From the NCBI GenBank assembly GCA_018263405.1, contig JAANXG010000004.1, positions 1-32,617 of the forward strand: 32,617 bases of DNA. Reading direction: 5' to 3'. Positions 1-31,091 of this stretch are shown one piece after another. Each line of letters begins with the position of its first letter. Within the stretch, counting starts at the first letter, position 1. The notes beneath the pieces were generated by a model. The model saw only the letters and a list, made by a program, of their open reading frames with translations. It was not told the origin of the DNA and ran no database searches. The stretch is from Gammaproteobacteria bacterium (GTDB lineage: Bacteria > Pseudomonadota > Gammaproteobacteria > Arenicellales > JAANXG01). Made by a program: the position numbers and the translations under genes.

Positions 1-126
1 GGTCGGAAAAGCCCCTCGCCGGCGTTACGCTCGCTTGAATTGACCGGGCCAGTCCTGCGCTCGCGTGCCTTGGCGATCGGCTTTTCCGATCCCGCTGAAC
101 GTGTGTGTATTTATGCCCAAGGGTAC
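1..126. mobile_element. Partial palindromic MITE/REP-like element (family E), left end outside the window
   Basis: ggtcggaaaagcc (1-13) pairs with ggcttttccgatc (79-91), with nested inner stems. Non-coding. Ends ...cccaagggtac, followed by TTA and another element end. Confidence 0.55.
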
Positions 127-129
127 TTA

Positions 130-150
130 GGGCTCGCGCAAAAATAACTT
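130..150 (+). repeat. Solo terminal inverted repeat of MITE family A
   Basis: gggctcgcgcaaaaataactt preceded by TTA, identical to the TIRs at 29150 and 30678; similarity stops after 21 nt. Confidence 0.85.
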
Positions 151-187
151 TTAGGACCTACAGGATAAACTATGGCCGAGGTCGATA

Positions 188-2838: not shown

Positions 2839-3051
2839 GTAATTTCTTAAAAAGTCCGTGCAATGCCGGCGATCATGTAGGGGCAGGGTTGTCTTTCAGG
2901 GACGCTGTAAGAAGTGGCATAGGGAAGTGCCGTTTACGGAGCTAAGGATGCAATACATCCTTGTACGCTCTGTCGAAAGCCTCCGTGCTTTCGACAGCCC
3001 CGAAAGACAACCCTACCCCTACATTCTTGCACGGGGTTATTGAGAAATTAC
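2839..3051. mobile_element. 213-bp MITE (family C) with 8-bp target duplication
   Basis: Ends gtaatttct...agaaattac. Long imperfect arms (atgtaggggcagggttgtctttc / gaaagacaaccctacccctacat). Flanked by direct repeat gatttact at 2831-2838 and 3052-3059. Internal 11-bp hairpin 2970-2997. Confidence 0.85.
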
Positions 3052-3900: not shown

Positions 3901-4006
3901 GTCTGGTAAGTCGTGATTGAAATCGTGAAGGGGGATAGTACCACCCTTCAAGATGATATTTACGGGTACAGAACCCCGCAGGAGTGCACTTGCACAATTC
4001 CCTAAT

Positions 4007-4052
4007 GACAACCCTGCCCCCACATTCTTACACGGGGTTACTGAGAACTTGT
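4007..4052 (+). repeat. Degenerate right end of MITE family C
   Basis: 39/46 identical to 3006-3051 by manual alignment; possible decayed left arm near 3972-3987. Confidence 0.8.
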
Positions 4053-5300: not shown

Positions 5301-5345
5301 AACAATCCCGCCCCCATATTCTGCACGGGGTTATCGATAACTTAG
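5301..5345 (+). repeat. Degenerate right end of MITE family C
   Basis: aacaatcccgcccccatattctgcacggggttatcgataacttag aligns with 3006-3051 and 4007-4052 in the same orientation. Confidence 0.72.
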
Positions 5346-8982: not shown

Positions 8983-9819
8983 GTGGATGACGTACGAGGC
9001 AAAGCGGGCACGCTCTACGTGGTAGCAACGCCTATCGGCAATCTTGCGGATATGAGCCACCGGGCGACATCTACACTGCAGTGCGTGGACCTCATTGCCG
9101 CAGAAGACACCCGCCAAACCGGTAGGCTGTGCTCGCATTTTTCGATCGACACGCCGATGGCGGCATACCACGAGCACAACGAAGTTCAACAAACGCCGGT
9201 GTTGTTGGATCGATTGCTGAAAGGCGATGATGTGGCGTTGGTCAGCGATGCGGGCAGCCCGTTGATTAGCGATCCCGGTTATCGTCTGGTGGCGGCAGCG
9301 CGCGATGCATTACTCACCGTCGTGCCGATTCCCGGCCCTTGTGCCGCTATTGCGGCGATTTCAGTCGCGGGCTTGGCCTGCCACCATTTTCACTTTGAAG
9401 GTTTTCTGCCCGGCAAATCCGGGACGCGGCGTAACCGTTTGCAAAAGTTGCGGGCGATGCCCGATACCTTGATTTTTTATGAGTCCATACATCGCCACGA
9501 AGACATGCTTCAGGATCTGTGTGAAGTTCTCGGCGGCGAGCGCCGGGCGGTATTGGCCCGGGAATTGACGAAGTTGCATGAAACGATTTATCGAAATACT
9601 TTGCAAGAAATTCGGGAATGGGTTGCGGCGAATCCCCATCGGCAAAAGGGCGAGTTTGTCATTCTCGTGGAAGGCGCCGCCGAAGGGGAGGCGGATGCCC
9701 GGGCGGAACATGTGCTTGAATTGTTGAGCGAGCAATTGTCACCGGGCCAGGCGGCGGAACTGGCGGCCAAAATTACCGGTGTGCCCCGCAATCGGCTGTA
9801 TAAGAGTAAATTACGGTGA
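8983..9819 (+). CDS. rsmI: 16S rRNA (cytidine1402-2'-O)-methyltransferase
   Basis: LYVVATPIGNL, AAEDTR, LVSDAGSPLISDPG, ARELTKLHE, KGEFV. AGGAG RBS. Stop codon lies inside a palindromic element. Confidence 0.96.
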   Translation: MDDVRGKAGTLYVVATPIGNLADMSHRATSTLQCVDLIAAEDTRQTGRLCSHFSIDTPMAAYHEHNEVQQTPVLLDRLLKGDDVALVSDAGSPLISDPGYRLVAAARDALLTVVPIPGPCAAIAAISVAGLACHHFHFEGFLPGKSGTRRNRLQKLRAMPDTLIFYESIHRHEDMLQDLCEVLGGERRAVLARELTKLHETIYRNTLQEIREWVAANPHRQKGEFVILVEGAAEGEADARAEHVLELLSEQLSPGQAAELAAKITGVPRNRLYKSKLR

Positions 9820-9885
9820 CAGTTAACTTAATTCGCTCCCAGCAAATATTCGATCGGTCGAATTAAGTTAACTGTCACCGTAATT
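9809..9885. mobile_element. 77-bp palindromic element (family B), copy 1
   Basis: 27-bp perfect inverted arms aattacggtgacagttaacttaattcg plus a 23-nt spacer. 75/77 identical to the reverse complement of 10131-10207. Confidence 0.92.
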
Positions 9886-9902
9886 CCTAATTCAGATATA
9901 TC

Positions 9903-9931
9903 TTGTCCTGCACTGCGCGCGGGCGTATGTT
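9903..9931 (+). promoter_or_regulatory. Putative sigma70 promoter of rnpB
   Basis: TTGTCC-17 nt-TATGTT, with a GC-rich discriminator, 7 nt before the rnpB 5' end. Confidence 0.55.
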
Positions 9932-9938
9932 CCGCACT

Positions 9939-10420
9939 GGGAAGTCAGCCGAACGGTCGCTCGTCATTGTTTGCGATTTGCGGTGTGCGGATCCCCGTCG
10001 CTCGTGCATCTCGAGTGCCGGGTAAGGTGACGGGAGGAAAGTCCGGGCTCCACAGGGCCGGGTGCCAGGTAACTCCTGGGCGGCGTGAGCCGACGGAAAG
10101 TGCCGCAGAAAAGATACCGCCCCGGCACTTAATTATGGTGACAGTTAACTTAATTCGACCGATCGAATATTTGCTGGGAGCGAATTAAGTTAACTGTCAC
10201 CATAATTAAGTGCCGGGGTAAGGGTGAAAAGGTGCGGTAAGAGCGCACCGCGCTTCTGGTAACAGAAGTGGCAGGGTAAACCCCACCCGGAGCAAGGCCG
10301 AATAGGAGTCCAAAGGCGTGGCCCACGCCGGACTCGGGTAGGTCGCTTGAGGCGGGCGGTGACGTTCGTCCCAGATGAATGACCGTTCTCGACAGAACCC
10401 GGCTTACAGGCTGACTTCCC
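9939..10420 (+). ncRNA. rnpB: RNase P RNA, type A, enlarged to about 482 nt
   Basis: P1 gggaagtcagcc/ggctgacttccc; GAGGAAAGTCCGGGCTC; GGTAAGGGTGAAA; GGTAAGAGCGCACC; GGAGCAAG; AGATGAATGAC; ACAGAACCCGGCTTA. Located between rsmI and mraZ. Confidence 0.98.
10131..10207. mobile_element. 77-bp palindromic element (family B), copy 2, inside rnpB P12
   Basis: Arms aattatggtgacagttaacttaattcg / cgaattaagttaactgtcaccataatt, between the P12 strands ccccggcactt and aagtgccgggg. Confidence 0.92.
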
Positions 10421-10563
10421 GTTTTCCGCTCTCGACGATCCCCCAATTACCTTTTAAATCAGCAGGTTTCGATGATCTTATAAAGCAATACTCTAATAAT
10501 CAGAAACCGTTATAAGTTTCTGTACGGAAAGGACTTTTTGGCCGATCAGTGGGCCAAAATCGC

Positions 10564-10591
10564 TTGACTTGCTCGCAATGCCCTCTATAGT
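10564..10591 (+). promoter_or_regulatory. sigma70 promoter of the mraZ/dcw operon
   Basis: TTGACT-16 nt-TATAGT directly upstream of the MraZ boxes. Confidence 0.8.
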
Positions 10592-10599
10592 GTCACGGA

Positions 10600-10624
10600 G
10601 TGGGGAAAAGTGGGTAATTGTGGG
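10600..10624 (+). promoter_or_regulatory. MraZ operator (three GTGGG boxes at 10-bp spacing)
   Basis: GTGGG at 10600, 10610 and 10620, matching the known MraZ direct-repeat site. Confidence 0.88.
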
Positions 10625-10646
10625 TTGATGCAACAGAGACCGAACC

Positions 10647-11102
10647 TTGTTTAGGGGAGTCACATCGTTGAATCTGGACGCTAAGGGGCGACTTGCTATA
10701 CCGGCTCGTCACCGCGAGGCGCTCGTGCAACAGTGCGACAGTCAACTCGTGATTACCATCAGCGACAGAGATCACTGCCTGTGGCTGTACCCACTGGACG
10801 AATGGGAGGACATCGAACATAAGCTGGTGAAATTGCCGAGCCTAGAGCCGGTGGCCCAACGACTCAAACGACTGCTTATCGGTCATGCGACCGACTGCGA
10901 AGTGGATGGTAATGGTCGGGTGCTGGTGCCGCCGCCGCTACGGGAACATGGCGGTTTGACCAAACGCGTGAAGCTGGTTGGGCAGGGTAACAAGTTCGAG
11001 ATTTGGGACGAGAATCTCTGGAGTGTCCAAATCGAGACCGCGCTGTCGCAAAATCCCGATGAGTCTCCCGTGCCTGCTGATTTGGAATCGTTAGCCCTTT
11101 GA
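10647..11102 (+). CDS. mraZ: Division/cell wall cluster transcriptional repressor
   Basis: MFRG, LDAKGRLAIP, DGNGRVLVP, GQGNKFEIW; TTG start. Confidence 0.97.
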   Translation: MFRGVTSLNLDAKGRLAIPARHREALVQQCDSQLVITISDRDHCLWLYPLDEWEDIEHKLVKLPSLEPVAQRLKRLLIGHATDCEVDGNGRVLVPPPLREHGGLTKRVKLVGQGNKFEIWDENLWSVQIETALSQNPDESPVPADLESLAL

Positions 11103-11111
11103 AAGGCGCGT

Positions 11112-12056
11112 ATGACGATGTCCGCTCACACGCCGGTGCTCTTGAAAGAGGCCATAACGGCGTTGAATATCAAGCCCGGTGGTACATACCTCGACGTGAC
11201 GTACGGTCGTGGTGGGCACAGCTATGCCATCGCCGAGCACCTCTGTCCGGATGGAATGTTGATTGCCATGGACCGGGATCCACACGCCGTTCGGCACGCT
11301 CGGGAATACCCGCCCAGTGGTCCGCGATTCGAGATTATTCAGGCGCCGTTCTCGGAATTGTACCGGGTCCAACAGAGTCTGCCGCCGGGGTGCCTTGCTG
11401 ACGGCATCCTCGCCGATCTCGGCGTTTCGTCGCCACAACTCGAAGACGCCGAGCGAGGCTTTGCGTTCGATCGGGAGGGTCCCCTCGATATGCGCATGGA
11501 TCCGACACGCGGACCGAGTGCTCGCGAGTGGATTGCCGATGCGGAGCAAGCCGAGTTGAAGTGGGCGATCAAAATCTACGGTGAAGAAAAGTACGCCGCC
11601 CGCATTGCGCGTGCCATCGTAGAGAAACGTGAAACTTCGCCGATCGTCAATACACGAGACCTTGCTGAACTTGTCGCCGGCAACGTGCCGGAGCGCGAAT
11701 CGGGCAGGAACCCGGCCACGCGCACGTTCCAAGCGATTCGCATGCACGTAAACGGTGAGTTGGGACAGCTCCGGGCCTTGCTACCACAGGCGGTGCAATG
11801 CCTAAAAGGCGCCGGCCGTCTTGTGATTATCGGTTTCCATTCCCTTGAGGACCGGATCGTCAAACGGTTTATGCGCGACGAGGCACGCGGTGATCCTTTT
11901 CCCTCGGACCTACCGGTAACCGCCGGTGAACTCAAGCCGAGGCTCAGGATAATCGGAAAGCCCATCCGGCCGTCGGAACAGGAACTGCAATCGAACCGCC
12001 GCGCGCGCAGCGCCATCATGCGGGTCGCGGAGCGGACGGAGGCGGCTTATGCGTAA
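11112..12056 (+). CDS. rsmH: 16S rRNA (cytosine1402-N4)-methyltransferase
   Basis: HTPVLL, D-TYGRGGHS, DLGVSSPQL, GPLDMRMD, TRTFQAIR, FHSLEDR, N-RARSA. Confidence 0.97.
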   Translation: MTMSAHTPVLLKEAITALNIKPGGTYLDVTYGRGGHSYAIAEHLCPDGMLIAMDRDPHAVRHAREYPPSGPRFEIIQAPFSELYRVQQSLPPGCLADGILADLGVSSPQLEDAERGFAFDREGPLDMRMDPTRGPSAREWIADAEQAELKWAIKIYGEEKYAARIARAIVEKRETSPIVNTRDLAELVAGNVPERESGRNPATRTFQAIRMHVNGELGQLRALLPQAVQCLKGAGRLVIIGFHSLEDRIVKRFMRDEARGDPFPSDLPVTAGELKPRLRIIGKPIRPSEQELQSNRRARSAIMRVAERTEAAYA

Positions 12057-28235: not shown

Positions 28236-29150
28236 ATGATTCGACAAAGAACGCTAAAAAACGTAATTAGGGCCACTGGGGTAGGGCTCCACACTGGAGA
28301 AAAGGTCTATTTAACGTTGCGGCCGGCGGCGCCGAGTACCGGTATCGTATTCCGCAGAGTGGACCTGGATCCCCCCGTTGACGTTCCCGCGTGTTGCGAG
28401 AACGTGGGCGATACACGCTTATCCACGACCTTGCACAAAGGAGATGTCTGGATCTCGACCGTTGAACACTTGATGTCGGCGTTCGCGGGTCTAGGTATCG
28501 ACAACGCCTATGTGGATTTAACGGCGCCGGAAGTGCCGATTATGGATGGCAGTGCGGGACCATTCGTTTTTTTGATCCAATCCGCCGGCATTGAGGAACA
28601 GTTGTGGCCCAAGCGCTTTATCCGGATCAAGAAACCGCTCGTTTTGGAGGAAGGCGATAAATGGGCGCGGTTCGATCCCTTGAATGGGTTCAAGGTGTCG
28701 TTCGGTATCGAATTTAATCACCCGATTTTTAGTCAATCGCTGCAACGATCAACAATCGATTTCTCGACAACATCGTTTGTCAAGGAAGTGAGCCGTGCCC
28801 GGACATTCGGTTTTATGCACGACGTTGAGGCATTGAGAAAATCGGGGCTTGCCAGAGGAGGAAGCCTCGATAACGCCATTGTCATGGACTCGTACCATAT
28901 TCTGAACGAGGATGGACTCCGCTACGAGGATGAATTCGTCAAGCACAAGATCCTCGATGCGATTGGAGATCTGTACCTGCTGGGACATCCGCTGATCGGC
29001 GCGTTCAGTGCTCATAAATCGGGACATGCCCTGAATAACGAAATCTTGCGAATGCTGCTCAAAGCGGAAGAAATCTGGGAGCTGGTGTCCTTTGACGACG
29101 CCGACGATGCGCCACTGGCGTTTGTGCATCCATTGACGGCATCGGCTTAG
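28236..29150 (+). CDS. lpxC: UDP-3-O-acyl-GlcNAc deacetylase
   Basis: [41 protein letters not shown]. Confidence 0.98.
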
Positions 29151-29229
29151 GGCTCGCGCAAAAATAACTTCACAGAATTCGCGCCCGAAGACGGGATGTG
29201 AAAATGGGAAGTTATTTTTGCGCGAGCCC
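29150..29229. mobile_element. 80-bp MITE (family A, internally deleted form), TTA target duplication
   Basis: 22-bp TIR gggctcgcgcaaaaataacttc / gaagttatttttgcgcgagccc; TTA at 29147-29149 and 29230-29232. Confidence 0.92.
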
Positions 29230-29261
29230 TTAGAAAACGCAATAAGCCGAACGGCACGTAG

Positions 29262-29708: not shown

Positions 29709-30677
29709 ATGCAAGTCATACTCCTTCCCAAAGGTTCGGGTCCCAGCCGAGTATATCGGTTTCGGATTGTTCTCGTCTGCTCCATCGTGGCCGGCGTATT
29801 GCTCGCTATCGGTGTTGGCGGCGGTTATTTCGGGTATCGCATCGGTAGCGATCTGGCCCATCTGGAACAGCGCGTGCCCGAGATCCAAGTCGAGAGTTTC
29901 GCCGCGGTTGGCGTGGAAAAACTGTTTGATCTGAAAGCGAGCGTGGATGAACAGCGCCGCATGTTGCAGGAGTCCCGCCGGCGCGTGGGCGATCGCTTTG
30001 ACAGCCTGGGTCGGCGCCTCGGAAGGCTCCAGGCCCATGTCTCGCGCATCGATGCCCTCGGCCTTCGATTGACCGATATGGCGGGACTCGACCCCGATGA
30101 ATTCGGCTTCGATAAGACGCCGGCTTTGGGCGGACCGGGGCGCCCCGCACCCTGGAAGTCGTTTCGAGAACCGGAATTAACGCAATCCCTGGAAATTATG
30201 GAGATCGCGCTTGAGGCAAAGGAGGGTGAATTACGGATTCTCGAGGCCATGATGATGAACCGGGAACTACAGAAAAAGCAATATCCCCGGGGTTGGCCGA
30301 TCCTTGATGGCGGTTGGATAAGCTCCGGCTACGGGGGTCGAACGGACCCGTTCACCGGTGGAAAAGAATTTCATGAAGGTGTAGATATCGCCGCGCGGAG
30401 CGGGTCCGAGCTGCGCGCCATGGCGGCGGGCGTGGTCGGTTTTGCCGGGGAAAAACCGGGTTATGGTCTAGTTATCGAAATCAATCATGGCAACGGCTAC
30501 GAGACGCGCTATGCGCATGCAAAGAAGTTGATCGCAAGCAGGGGCGAGCGCGTTAAGAAAGGCGATATTGTCGCGCTGGTGGGCAGTACGGGACGTTCGA
30601 CGGGCAGCCATGTGCATATCGAGGTTCTGAAAAACGGCAAGGCGGTTAACCCCGGTGGGCATCTGCATCCCTCCTAA
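29709..30677 (+). CDS. M23 family metallopeptidase (membrane anchor + coiled coil)
   Basis: WISSGYGGRTDPF, HxxxD (HEGVD), TRYAH, GSTGRSTG-HVH-EV. Confidence 0.93.
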   Translation: MQVILLPKGSGPSRVYRFRIVLVCSIVAGVLLAIGVGGGYFGYRIGSDLAHLEQRVPEIQVESFAAVGVEKLFDLKASVDEQRRMLQESRRRVGDRFDSLGRRLGRLQAHVSRIDALGLRLTDMAGLDPDEFGFDKTPALGGPGRPAPWKSFREPELTQSLEIMEIALEAKEGELRILEAMMMNRELQKKQYPRGWPILDGGWISSGYGGRTDPFTGGKEFHEGVDIAARSGSELRAMAAGVVGFAGEKPGYGLVIEINHGNGYETRYAHAKKLIASRGERVKKGDIVALVGSTGRSTGSHVHIEVLKNGKAVNPGGHLHPS

Positions 30678-31019
30678 GGGCTCGCGCAAAAATAACTTCC
30701 CATTTTCACATCCCGTCTTCGGGCCATCTTTGAACGATCCTCAATCGAAAAATCCTCATAGTAGCCCTGCTAGGAGCCTGTCGGACTTAGGATGAATCTA
30801 CTGCGGCGGCGGGAGATCGGCCCACTTTCCCGATTTATTTCGTTAAATAGCTGGCTATTCGCCTCAATAAATCGAAAAATTGGTCTCGATTTCCCACCTA
30901 CCTCGCTACGATCCCCTAAGTCCGACAGGCTCCTAGTACTGCGGTTTTGCTCCATCGGATCGTCCAAATCTAACCCAAATTCGGGCGCGAATTCTGTGAA
31001 GTTATTTTTGCGCGAGCCC
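30678..31019. mobile_element. MITE family A, long form (179 bp plus nested insertion)
   Basis: Same 22-bp TIRs as 29150-29229, in opposite orientation; internal stem tttgaacgatcc/ggatcgtccaaa; flanks TAA (left) and TTA (right). Confidence 0.92.
30774..30932. mobile_element. 159-bp MITE (family D) nested in the family A element
   Basis: 18-bp TIR gagcctgtcggacttagg / cctaagtccgacaggctc, CTAG on both sides (30770-30773, 30933-30936); long internal hairpin. Confidence 0.92.
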
Positions 31020-31091
31020 TTACGGTAAATGCCGGAAAACAAGCATCGATTACATCGCCGACTATGTAATTACCCAGAGTCTGTATGAGTA

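What the first reader, a model, noticed from the sequence alone, without database searches (positions are those of the whole stretch)
10120..10218. Mobile palindrome inserted in helix P12 of RNase P RNA creates a 38-bp perfect helix
Seen: a 77-bp element occupies the apex of P12 and is continuous with the host stem. 10120-10157 pairs perfectly with 10181-10218, with a 23-nt loop, and the RNA is about 482 nt versus 377 nt in E. coli. All conserved catalytic motifs are intact. Known: P12 is a variable peripheral helix, and repeat insertions in rnpB have precedent (Rickettsia palindromic elements, tandem repeats in some cyanobacteria). Inference: an essential ribozyme tolerates or has domesticated the element. 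A perfect 38-bp duplex is a plausible RNase III substrate, so the mature RNA may be two-piece, like rRNAs with intervening sequences.
Basis: partly seen in the sequence, partly recalled or inferred. Interest (0 to 1): 0.85.

Follow-up and report, generated by a model that had tools for sequence, protein, structure and literature searches.

The report
REPIN mobile palindrome inside RNase P RNA
A small mobile DNA palindrome of the REPIN type has landed exactly at the tip of a dispensable outer helix (P12) of the essential RNase P ribozyme gene, lengthening that helix without touching the catalytic core.

Summary
rnpB (RF00010, 341.5 bits) spans 9941-10422. A 77-nt palindrome (10131-10207) sits in the P12 loop and, with the host stem, gives a perfect 38-bp helix with a 23-nt loop.

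The element is a REPIN: two inverted 27-nt REP arms around a spacer. The 77%-complete MAG holds six full copies plus variants. Its single REP-associated tyrosine transposase (RAYT) gene, on contig C71, is flanked by the same arms. Orthologous RAYTs in four relatives carry a diverged version of the arm. None of 8 copies has a target-site duplication.

Both junctions appear in independent k-mer contigs of 4 of 4 DNA runs, at flank depth, with no empty allele. The four same-genus rnpB genes have short P12 helices.

A different REP doublet, tied to another RAYT, sits in the P12 tip in a second genus.

The two-piece RNA idea could not be tested, because no RNA run holds this organism. An RNase III gene is present. 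P12-expansion excision giving a fragmented P RNA is already published for Thermodesulfatator indicus.

Verdict: a real, tolerated REPIN insertion and a new variant of known phenomena.

The parts
9941..10422 (+). rnpB, bacterial class-A RNase P RNA, 482 nt
   Evidence: RF00010, 341.5 bits, E 1.5e-111, model 1-367. It is the only RF00010 match in the MAG.
10120..10130 (+). Host P12 5' strand: 9-bp stem plus the first two bases of the former UUAA loop
   Evidence: Aligned to model P12 positions. It lies outside the element as bounded by the other copies.
10131..10207 (+). REPIN copy B in the P12 apex: left REP arm 10131-10157, spacer 10158-10180, right REP arm 10181-10207
   Evidence: (I1, I4, D1). 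No target-site duplication. Junction k-mers present in 4 of 4 runs.
10208..10218 (+). Host P12 3' strand
   Evidence: Perfectly complementary to 10120-10130 (I4; 11 uninterrupted Watson-Crick pairs across the insertion point).
9809..9885 (-). REPIN copy A, sister copy in opposite orientation, 245 nt upstream of copy B and between the upstream ORF and rnpB
   Evidence: 97% complementary to copy B over 77 nt (I1). Identical spacer. The only differences are the two sides of one compensated pair, C-G versus T-A. It overlaps 11 nt of ORF 8983-9819, including its TGA stop.
9961..10031 (+). Expanded, branched P3 of rnpB, not a repeat
   Evidence: About 51 bases inserted relative to the model. Absent from the four same-genus genes. 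Single copy in the MAG by blastn-short.
8983..9819 (+). Upstream 278-aa ORF (RsmI-like by my reading of the translation; no family search run) whose last codons and stop lie in REPIN A

Best explanation
The 77-nt palindrome in P12 is a REPIN. It is a non-autonomous doublet of two inverted 27-nt REP units around a 23-nt spacer. It belongs to a small family in this genome and is most likely mobilised by the genome's single REP-associated tyrosine (HUH/Y1) transposase, which lies on contig C71 and is flanked by the same REP units. One copy lies in the normal extragenic place between the upstream ORF and rnpB. Its nearly identical sister was copied 245 nt away, in opposite orientation, into the middle of the UUAA tetraloop of helix P12. 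P12 is a peripheral, length-variable helix of the specificity domain, and the element is itself a perfect hairpin. The insert therefore simply extends P12 coaxially from 9 to 38 bp and leaves all conserved core elements in place, so the ribozyme is expected to stay functional. Insertions elsewhere in rnpB would be lethal and are not seen, so the position reflects survivorship. Shown: the anatomy, the family, the RAYT link, the presence of the junctions in the DNA, and the short P12 in relatives. Inferred: mobilisation by this RAYT, the local-hop origin, and retained RNase P activity. A further step is inferred at about 35%: the long A/U-rich perfect duplex or its A/U-rich loop is cut in vivo by RNase III or RNase E, giving a two-piece RNA like that of T. 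indicus.
For: Anatomy. Family: six full-length 77-78-nt copies (85-97% identical to the P12 copy) on five contigs, plus two longer variants and solo arms. The arm pattern occurs 19 times in G000 against 0-8 times in four same-genus genomes, with reversed controls at 0. Hairpin kept by covariation: pair 6/73 is G-C in 3 copies, C-G in 1, U-A in 1 and G-U in 1. 97.5% of cells pair, and 2 of 500 shuffles reach that value. RAYT: a 222-aa ORF on C71 matches PF01797 at 53.4 bits (cut-off 23) and NF047646 REP_Tyr_transpos at 80 bits (cut-off 80). It aligns with E. coli TnpArep (4ER8), including the H-x-H and Tyr-containing stretches. It is the only Y1_Tnp match in the MAG. It is flanked by two direct arms on one side and one inverted arm on the other. 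RAYT orthologues at 61-62% identity in G003, G013, G015 and G017 are flanked by inverted copies of a diverged arm (GGGGACAGTTTACTTAATT). No flank repeat of 2 nt or more at 0 of 8 copies fits a Y1 transposase rather than a DDE transposase. The other copies lie between long ORFs. Real in DNA: Logan contigs 9850-10149, 10120-10166 and 10189-10700 have 0 differences in 4 of 4 runs, at depths equal to the flanks, and no contig joins 10130 to 10208. Insertion rather than ancestral state: same-genus P12 intervals are 19-36 nt against 106 nt here. Tolerance: relatives carry natural P12 intervals up to 108 nt. P12 is described as sometimes dispensable (PMC2858038 passage). The bit score equals that of relatives.
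Against: Transposition by this RAYT is not demonstrated, and REPIN mobility is slow and inferred even in model systems. The REP arms lack the GTAG or CGTC tag seen in most REP families (abstract of PMC3733652; arms read). Each arm is only weakly self-palindromic. Copy number is low for a REPIN population. In 2 of 6 relatives' RAYT loci examined (G001, G005) no related arm was found at 3 mismatches or fewer. The four DNA runs come from one study and may be the source of the MAG, and only contigs were laid, not raw reads. No single listed contig has 31 or more bases on both sides of a junction, because the palindrome collapses the k-mer graph. Activity of this RNA was not tested. rnpA was not found in the 77%-complete MAG.
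Confidence: 0.8

Rival explanations
1. Two-piece ribozyme (adds to the best explanation). The 38-bp perfect duplex or its loop is cleaved in vivo by RNase III or RNase E. The distal P12 is removed, and the mature RNase P RNA is a 5' piece of about 190-200 nt and a 3' piece of about 215-225 nt held together by the remaining P12 stem and tertiary contacts.
For: A perfect 38-bp, A/U-rich helix with a 23-nt loop that contains AAUAUUU. An RNase III domain gene is present in the MAG (PF14622, 131.6 bits). There is a direct precedent: T. indicus P RNA loses about 70 nt of a P12 expansion in its native host and in E. coli and still complements, and the paper cites halves of E. coli P RNA split in P12 reconstituting activity (PMC9945441 abstract and passages). 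Transcribed Correia repeats can bind RNase III and be cleaved or protected (PMC2649163 abstract).
Against: There are no RNA data for this organism (best RNA run share 0.09). RNase III cleavage depends on sequence antideterminants and accessibility, which were not assessed. The nuclease in T. indicus is unidentified, and its cut region is described as A/U-rich and possibly RNase E-like.
Confidence: 0.35
2. Domesticated extension. The REPIN-derived P12 arm is kept because it helps folding, stability, localisation or regulation of RNase P.
For: The arms are still perfectly paired, and the one difference from the sister copy is compensated. A second REP doublet sits in the P12 tip in another genus and is shared by two species. 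In T. indicus, replacing the P12 expansion impaired complementation.
Against: Perfect pairing is equally expected for a young copy, since it is 97% identical to its neighbour. Compensated pairs are a general REPIN property (PMC3116915 passage). The four other species of the genus do well with P12 stems of about 4-11 bp. The insert was not seen in any other species.
Confidence: 0.1
3. The element is a MITE derived from a DDE insertion sequence (Correia-like or IS630-like), not a REPIN.
For: Long perfect terminal inverted repeats, a size of 77 nt and A/T-rich ends, which superficially resemble a MITE.
Against: No target-site duplication at 0 of 8 copies. The only gene bounded by the arms is a RAYT. 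Co-diverged arms flank RAYT orthologues in four other genomes. Solo arms on C79 and C5 are not next to a transposase-like ORF.
Confidence: 0.05
4. Assembly artefact: a repeat copy was wrongly threaded into rnpB by the assembler.
For: The genome is a fragmented MAG (163 contigs). The palindrome breaks the k-mer graph, and no single listed contig spans a junction with 31 or more bases on each side.
Against: Junction-specific 31-mers exist in 4 of 4 runs, inside contigs with 0 differences and at the depth of the single-copy flanks (51/28/26/45 against 60/29/30/44). The breaks fall exactly where a perfect 38-bp palindrome and a two-copy repeat must break a k=31 graph. No contig gives an insert-free join in this organism.
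Confidence: 0.03
5. The insertion has disabled this rnpB, and another RNase P (a second rnpB or a protein-only enzyme) does the work.
For: 23% of the genome is missing.
Against: The core is fully conserved, with a score equal to relatives. The insertion is at the one kind of site known to accept large expansions. There is no second RF00010 match and no PIN_5/HARP-type match, though both negatives are weak in an incomplete MAG.
Confidence: 0.04

Closest known systems
REPIN-RAYT systems (Pseudomonas fluorescens SBW25, E. coli; Bertels & Rainey 2011, PMC3116915, passages read)
   Same: Two inverted REP units with a less conserved spacer form a hairpin. Compensatory changes keep the hairpin. Copies are dispersed and mostly extragenic. 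A single RAYT gene is flanked by the same REPs. There is no target duplication. REP and RAYT are found together across related genomes.
   Different: This copy lies inside an essential RNA gene. The population is small (about 19 arms, against hundreds to more than 1000 in SBW25). The arms have no GTAG or CGTC tag and little internal palindrome. The arms pair perfectly over 27 bp.
P12 expansion segment of Thermodesulfatator indicus RNase P RNA, excised in vivo (PMC9945441, abstract and passages)
   Same: A class-A P RNA with an extra A/U-rich P12 arm of about 70-87 nt. That paper shows such an arm can be cut out, leaving a working fragmented RNA.
   Different: The origin of the T. indicus segment is not described as a repeat, and I could not test it. 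Here the arm is a perfect duplex of identifiable mobile origin, but no RNA data exist. T. indicus also has a protein-only RNase P, which was not found here (incomplete MAG).
STRR repeats within rnpB of heterocyst-forming cyanobacteria (Vioque 1997; only the title was seen, in a reference list; paper not held)
   Same: Genome-wide repetitive DNA is tolerated inside the RNase P RNA gene. PMC2858038 cites this paper for P12 being dispensable in cyanobacteria.
   Different: These are tandem short repeats, not an inverted-repeat mobile element with a dedicated transposase. That they lie in P12 is my recollection plus that citation context.
Intervening sequences of 23S rRNA (for example Coxiella burnetii helix 45 IVS, PMC4990558 abstract)
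   Same: A selfish insert at a helix of an essential structural RNA. In rRNA, RNase III removes it and the RNA works in pieces.
   Different: These are in rRNA, not RNase P RNA. IVS elements are larger and not RAYT-dependent. Processing here is unproven.
Correia repeat-enclosed elements of Neisseria (PMC2649163 abstract)
   Same: Small palindromic mobile elements whose transcribed hairpin can bind RNase III and be cleaved or protected.
   Different: They are DDE-type MITEs with a target duplication (recalled), located in mRNA leaders and trailers rather than inside a ribozyme.
Rickettsia palindromic elements (recalled; no held paper links them to rnpB)
   Same: Palindromic repeats that survive inside genes at structurally permissive places.
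   Different: They are mostly in protein-coding genes and have no known dedicated transposase. The rnpB claim could not be verified here.

Membership tests
REPIN (REP doublet forming a hairpin) | Two REP units in inverted orientation separated by a short spacer and predicted to form a hairpin | tested here: met
   27-nt arms, 23-nt spacer, 100% complementary (I4 and I8). 97.5% of cells pair across 6 copies.
REPIN (REP doublet forming a hairpin) | Member of a dispersed multi-copy family, mostly extragenic | tested here: met
   Six full copies on five contigs plus variants and solo arms. 19 arm matches against 0 in the control. The other copies lie between long ORFs, with C69 ambiguous. Copy number is low.
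REPIN (REP doublet forming a hairpin) | Cognate RAYT gene flanked by the same REP units | tested here: met
   The C71 222-aa ORF matches NF047646 at 80 bits (exactly at the cut-off) and PF01797 at 53.4 bits. Arms lie at C71:4683 and 4710 (+) and 5459 (-). It is the only Y1_Tnp match. Related arms flank orthologues in 4 of 6 relatives' loci.
REPIN (REP doublet forming a hairpin) | Each REP has an imperfect palindromic core and, in most families, a GTAG or CGTC tag | tested here: not met
   Neither tetranucleotide occurs in either arm on either strand (sequence). Within an arm only AGTTAACT and AATTA/TAATT are self-complementary. The abstract of PMC3733652 says 'most', not all, REPs carry the tags.
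REPIN (REP doublet forming a hairpin) | Mobilised by the RAYT (cleavage and joining of REP single-stranded DNA) | not testable with these tools
   Only indirect support: no target duplication in 0 of 8 copies, and a sister copy 245 nt away.
Bacterial RNase P RNA class A (RF00010) | Covariance-model score above gathering, over the full model including the P4 and J11/12-J12/13 conserved stretches | tested here: met
   341.5 bits against 100, model 1-367.
Fragmented RNase P RNA with excised P12 expansion (T. indicus type) | P12 expansion segment in the gene | tested here: met
   P12 interval of 106 nt against 19-36 nt in the same genus.
Fragmented RNase P RNA with excised P12 expansion (T. indicus type) | Post-transcriptional excision giving separate 5' and 3' pieces in vivo | not testable with these tools
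DDE-transposase MITE (Correia-like or IS630-like) | Target-site duplication and a parent IS with the same terminal inverted repeats | tested here: not met
   No direct flank repeat of 2 nt or more at 0 of 8 copies. The only gene bounded by the arms is a Y1 transposase.

The most novel reading that the evidence does not exclude
Terminal loops of structured-RNA genes, and P12 of RNase P RNA in particular, are recurrent safe harbours for RAYT-mobilised REPINs: at least two independent hits by two different REP/RAYT families in one bacterial family. Such insertions would be the evolutionary source of P12 'expansion segments'. The perfect dsRNA they create would be cut out by RNase III or RNase E, so this organism would run on a naturally split RNase P RNA whose break was made by a mobile element.
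Probability: 0.2. Interest if true: 0.7.

Novelty: new variant of a known kind. Interest (0 to 1): 0.5.

Why it matters
REPINs are treated as strictly extragenic passengers. This case, and a second one in a neighbouring genus, shows one living inside an essential ribozyme gene at the single spot where a hairpin can be added without harm. That gives a concrete, datable origin for at least some of the P12 length variation long noted in RNase P RNAs. It also offers a natural construct with a 38-bp perfect duplex on a ribozyme, on which to test whether RNase III or RNase E generates split RNase P RNAs beyond the one published T. indicus case. Finally, it is a caution for annotation: repeat masking or length filters could miss or truncate such rnpB genes.

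Tried and rejected
Empty site. Three exact-pattern scans found no insert-free allele or close relative. A P3-specific 22-mer in metagenome contigs gave 0 hits. The 5' junction 19-mer gave 1 hit, which was not rnpB. The P12 stem with a 0-14-nt loop in genome contigs gave 1 hit, a Lewinellaceae MAG, which I took as coincidence and did not read. In run X3 a low-depth contig (6.9) joins 10122 to 10216 with 8 other letters. I read it as another organism's short P12, not as an allele.

RNA evidence. The best RNA runs held 0.08-0.09 of the sampled words, which is the conserved core of relatives. None was laid, so nothing can be said about expression or cleavage.

Hairpin-targeting idea. I asked whether the REPIN prefers centres of palindromes. 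Only the P12 copy has complementary flanks (11 of 12). The other seven copies have 2-6 of 12. I rejected targeting in favour of survivorship. Two copies (C118, C96) are nested beside older arm fragments.

P3 expansion as a second mobile insert. Rejected: it is single copy in the MAG.

Long P12 arms of G010 and G012. No second copy was found in five genomes of that genus. The long P12 of genus g6 is imperfect and shared across species, so it looks ancestral. Neither counts as a mobile insert.

The G008/G016 palindrome is low copy: 1, 2 and 1 places in G008, G016 and G014, and 0 in G010 and G012. Its link to a RAYT rests on 3 of 9 RAYT-like loci examined (L081, L082, L083).

rnpA (PF00825) and the PIN_5/HARP family (PF08745) were not found in the MAG. 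At 77% completeness this says little.

The promoter/terminator scan found nothing on the + strand inside or just before rnpB. The TTGTCC-17-TATGTT promoter I see at 9903-9931 is my reading by eye and falls below the tool's threshold.

Literature. No held paper contains both rnpB and REPIN. The searches 'RNase P RNA' + P12 + repetitive + insertion, rnpB + REP + palindromic + inserted, 'RNase P RNA' + 'miniature inverted-repeat', and the Rickettsia searches gave nothing relevant. Subscription papers are not searched, so 'not in print' is not established. Supplements were not opened. The supplementary figures of PMC9945441 (P12 cleavage sites) may bear on the comparison.

Structure prediction, fold search, complex prediction, the search for homologous proteins and the protein atlas were not used, because nothing here needed them.
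Full report
**What is there.** The Rfam scan finds one RNA gene in the window. It is a complete class-A RNase P RNA at 9941-10422 on the + strand (341.5 bits, gathering score 100, model 1-367, 482 nt).
- Two stretches do not align to the model: about 51 nt in the P3 loop and about 79 nt in the P12 loop, between model positions 136 and 137.
Arms 10120-10157 and 10181-10218 are 38 nt, 100% complementary and 23 nt apart (I4).
- The isolated P12 region folds into this hairpin at -72.5 kcal/mol, and the hairpin persists in the MFE fold of the whole RNA.
- The rest of the alignment is unbroken. The score is in the range of the four same-genus genes (337.4-344.3 bits).

**The insert is a repeat family member.** A second copy lies at 9809-9885 in the opposite orientation. 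It is 97% complementary over 77 nt (I1).
- The window belongs to a MAG of 1.93 Mb in 163 contigs, 77% complete.
- Full-length 77-78-nt copies, 85-90% identical to the P12 copy, lie on contigs C88, C76, C69 and C118.
- Longer variants lie on C4 (108 nt) and C96 (120 nt, different interior). Solo arms lie on C79, C5 and C71.
- The alignment of the six full copies bounds the element at 10131-10207. The arms are conserved and the spacer is more variable.
- The outer 11 bp of the 38-bp helix are therefore host sequence: a 9-bp P12 stem plus U-A, U-A from what must have been a UUAA tetraloop.
- Pair 6/73 of the hairpin is G-C in three copies, C-G in copy A, U-A in the P12 copy and G-U in one. Overall 97.5% of cells pair, and 2 of 500 shuffles reach that.
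- Copies A and B share an identical spacer and differ only by that compensated pair, so they are sister copies.

**It is a REPIN with its transposase.** On contig C71 a 222-aa ORF matches Pfam Y1_Tnp (53.4 bits, cut-off 23) and NCBIfam REP_Tyr_transpos (80 bits, exactly at the cut-off).
- It aligns to E. coli TnpArep (PDB 4ER8, E 7e-4), covering the H-V-H / H-M-H stretch and the Tyr-containing NPV stretch. Calling these the HUH motif and the catalytic tyrosine is my knowledge of the family.
- It is the only Y1_Tnp match in the MAG.
- Two direct arm-like units lie just beyond one end of the gene, and one inverted arm lies beyond the other.
- Homologues at E of 1e-10 or lower occur in 19 of 20 genomes of the family. 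The best orthologues are 56-62% identical.
- In four of the six relatives' loci I examined (G003, G013, G015, G017) the gene is flanked by inverted copies of a diverged arm, GGGGACAGTTTACTTAATT. In G001 and G005 I found none at 3 mismatches or fewer.
- None of 8 copies has a direct flank repeat of 2 nt or more. That fits a Y1/HUH mechanism and argues against a DDE-type MITE.
- The definition used is that of Bertels & Rainey 2011: inverted REP doublet, spacer, hairpin, compensatory changes, nearby RAYT (PMC3116915 passages).
- One usual REP feature is missing: the arms have no GTAG or CGTC tag (abstract of PMC3733652).
- The population is small. The arm pattern matches 19 times in G000, against 3, 0, 8 and 7 in the four same-genus genomes, with controls at 0.

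**Is it an insertion, and is it real?** The four same-genus rnpB genes are 339-362 nt. Their P12 stems are about 4-11 bp, with sequences unrelated to the element.
- The interval between the conserved CAGAAA and GUAAGGG motifs is 19-36 nt in the same genus and 106 nt here.
- Four DNA runs from one study hold 0.98 of the sampled words. They may be the MAG's source, so they are not independent samples of the biology, but Logan's contigs are an independent assembly.
- In 4 of 4 runs, contigs 9850-10149, 10120-10166 and 10189-10700 match with 0 differences. The 300-nt contig has depths 51/28/26/45, against 60/29/30/44 for the left flank. No contig joins 10130 to 10208.
- The contig breaks fall where a k=31 graph must break for a perfect 38-bp palindrome and for a segment shared with copy A.
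- No single listed contig has 31 or more bases on both sides of a junction, and raw reads were not available. I treat misassembly as very unlikely rather than excluded.

**Why P12, and how unusual is it?** P12 is the most length-variable place in these RNAs.
- Among 35 relatives of the order whose P12 interval I could extract, lengths run from 19 to 108 nt. Two of the 37 fetched loci did not match my motifs.
- Genus g6 has conserved, imperfect P12 arms of about 80-100 nt.
- In a class-level sample, 150 of 151 genomes have a match (148 over the cut-off). Only one listed full-model match (G149, 526 nt) is longer than 482 nt; 5 matches were not listed.
- In G149, G112 and G172 the extra length also sits in P12.
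- A 100-nt P12 is therefore tolerated in nature. What is special here is the perfect duplex and its mobile origin.
- The other REPIN copies lie between long ORFs. C69 is overlapped by two short ORFs of doubtful reality.
- Only the P12 copy sits in a palindrome centre: 11 of 12 complementary flank positions, against 2-6 of 12 for the other seven.
- The simplest reading is survivorship. A hairpin dropped into the tip of a solvent-exposed helix is the one kind of rnpB insertion that is not lethal.

**A second, independent case.** In genus g5, G008 and G016 are 97% identical over this 1951-nt locus, so their shared insert counts as one event.
- Both carry a perfect 22-26-bp palindrome, GGGGTCAGAGTAAA...TTTACTCTGACCCC, at the P12 tip.
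- The same doublet occurs at G016:C189 just after an ORF end, and at G014:C9. It is absent from G010 and G012, and controls are 0.
- Arms with 0-2 mismatches flank, in inverted orientation, a RAYT paralogue about 35% identical to the G000 protein. This holds in G008, G016 and G014, which is 3 of the 9 RAYT-like loci I examined.
- Two different REP/RAYT families have therefore each put a doublet into the P12 tip within one bacterial family.
- The long P12 arms of G010 and G012 have no second copy and are not counted.

**The two-piece idea.** It could not be tested. The best RNA runs hold 0.08-0.09 of the words, which is the conserved core of relatives.
- What bears on it: the MAG has an RNase III domain gene (131.6 bits). 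The helix is 38 bp, perfect and A/U-rich, and its loop contains an A/U-rich single-stranded stretch.
- Gossringer et al. (PMC9945441, abstract and passages) showed that T. indicus P RNA loses about 70 nt of a P12 expansion both in its own host and in E. coli.
- In that work the fragmented RNA supports growth in complementation, and replacing the expansion abolishes fragmentation but weakens complementation. The nuclease (RNase E or III) is not identified.
- That paper also cites reconstitution of E. coli P RNA from halves split in P12.

**Novelty.** The REPIN/RAYT kind is known. Repeats inside rnpB are known (the cyanobacterial STRR paper, title only). P12 expansion and excision are known. I found no held paper that puts a REPIN or any MITE inside rnpB, though subscription journals are not covered. 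I rate it a new variant of known kinds and of moderate interest. It is a neat, well-supported case with a second independent example, and it offers a testable origin for P12 expansion segments.

**Limits.**
- Gene names for the neighbours (RsmI-like 8983-9819, MraZ-like 10647-11102, RsmH-like 11112-12056) are my reading of the translations. No family search was run on them.
- Supplements were not opened.

Noticed in passing
window 126-154, 29146-29233, 30674-30724, 30980-31022: A second repeat family (core AGGGCTCGCGCAAAAATAACTT). It includes a hairpin doublet at 29146-29233 and 51-nt and 41-nt perfectly complementary arms about 1.4-1.8 kb apart. All copies lie between ORFs. It may be another REP/REPIN-like family without a RAYT in the assembled 77% of the genome.
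   Followed up: partly
window 2875-3050, 3989-4051, 5322-5344; also the start of contig C5: A third repeat family (ATGTAGGGGCAGGGTTGTCTTTCAGGG with TGCACGGGGTTATTGAGAA), which contains a GTAG. On C5 it lies next to a solo arm of the REPIN family studied here.
   Followed up: no
window 9961-10031: Helix P3 of the same rnpB is also expanded, to a branched structure of about 70 nt. It is absent from the four same-genus genes and single copy in the MAG, so it is not a recognisable mobile insert.
   Followed up: yes
window 9809-9819: REPIN copy A supplies the last three codons and the TGA stop of the upstream 278-aa ORF (RsmI-like by my reading), a 3'-end fusion of the kind described for other small repeats.
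   Followed up: partly
L022 (G008:C201:286-324) and G016:C14:2929-2967: Another genus of the same family carries a different perfect palindromic REP doublet in the P12 tip of rnpB. Copies also lie at G016:C189:3998-4039 and G014:C9:1422-1468, and related arms flank a RAYT paralogue (L081, L082, L083).
   Followed up: yes
G000 copies on C88, C76, C118, C4 and C96: Several REPIN copies are preceded by a partial tandem duplicate of their first 12-15 nt (AATTAGGGTGAC...). C118 and C96 look nested beside older arm fragments. This may be a footprint of the copying mechanism.
   Followed up: no
L090 (G149), L091 (G112), L092 (G172): The few very long rnpB genes in a class-wide sample (526, 469 and 427 nt) also owe their extra length mainly to P12 inserts of about 45-150 nt. 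Whether these are repeats in their genomes was not tested.
   Followed up: partly
window 9809-9885 and 10131-10207: The two REPIN copies form 77-nt inverted repeats bracketing the 5' half of rnpB. Recombination between them would invert that half and destroy the gene. The compensated variants (C-G in A, T-A in B) show that no such exchange has happened in the assembled form.
   Followed up: partly
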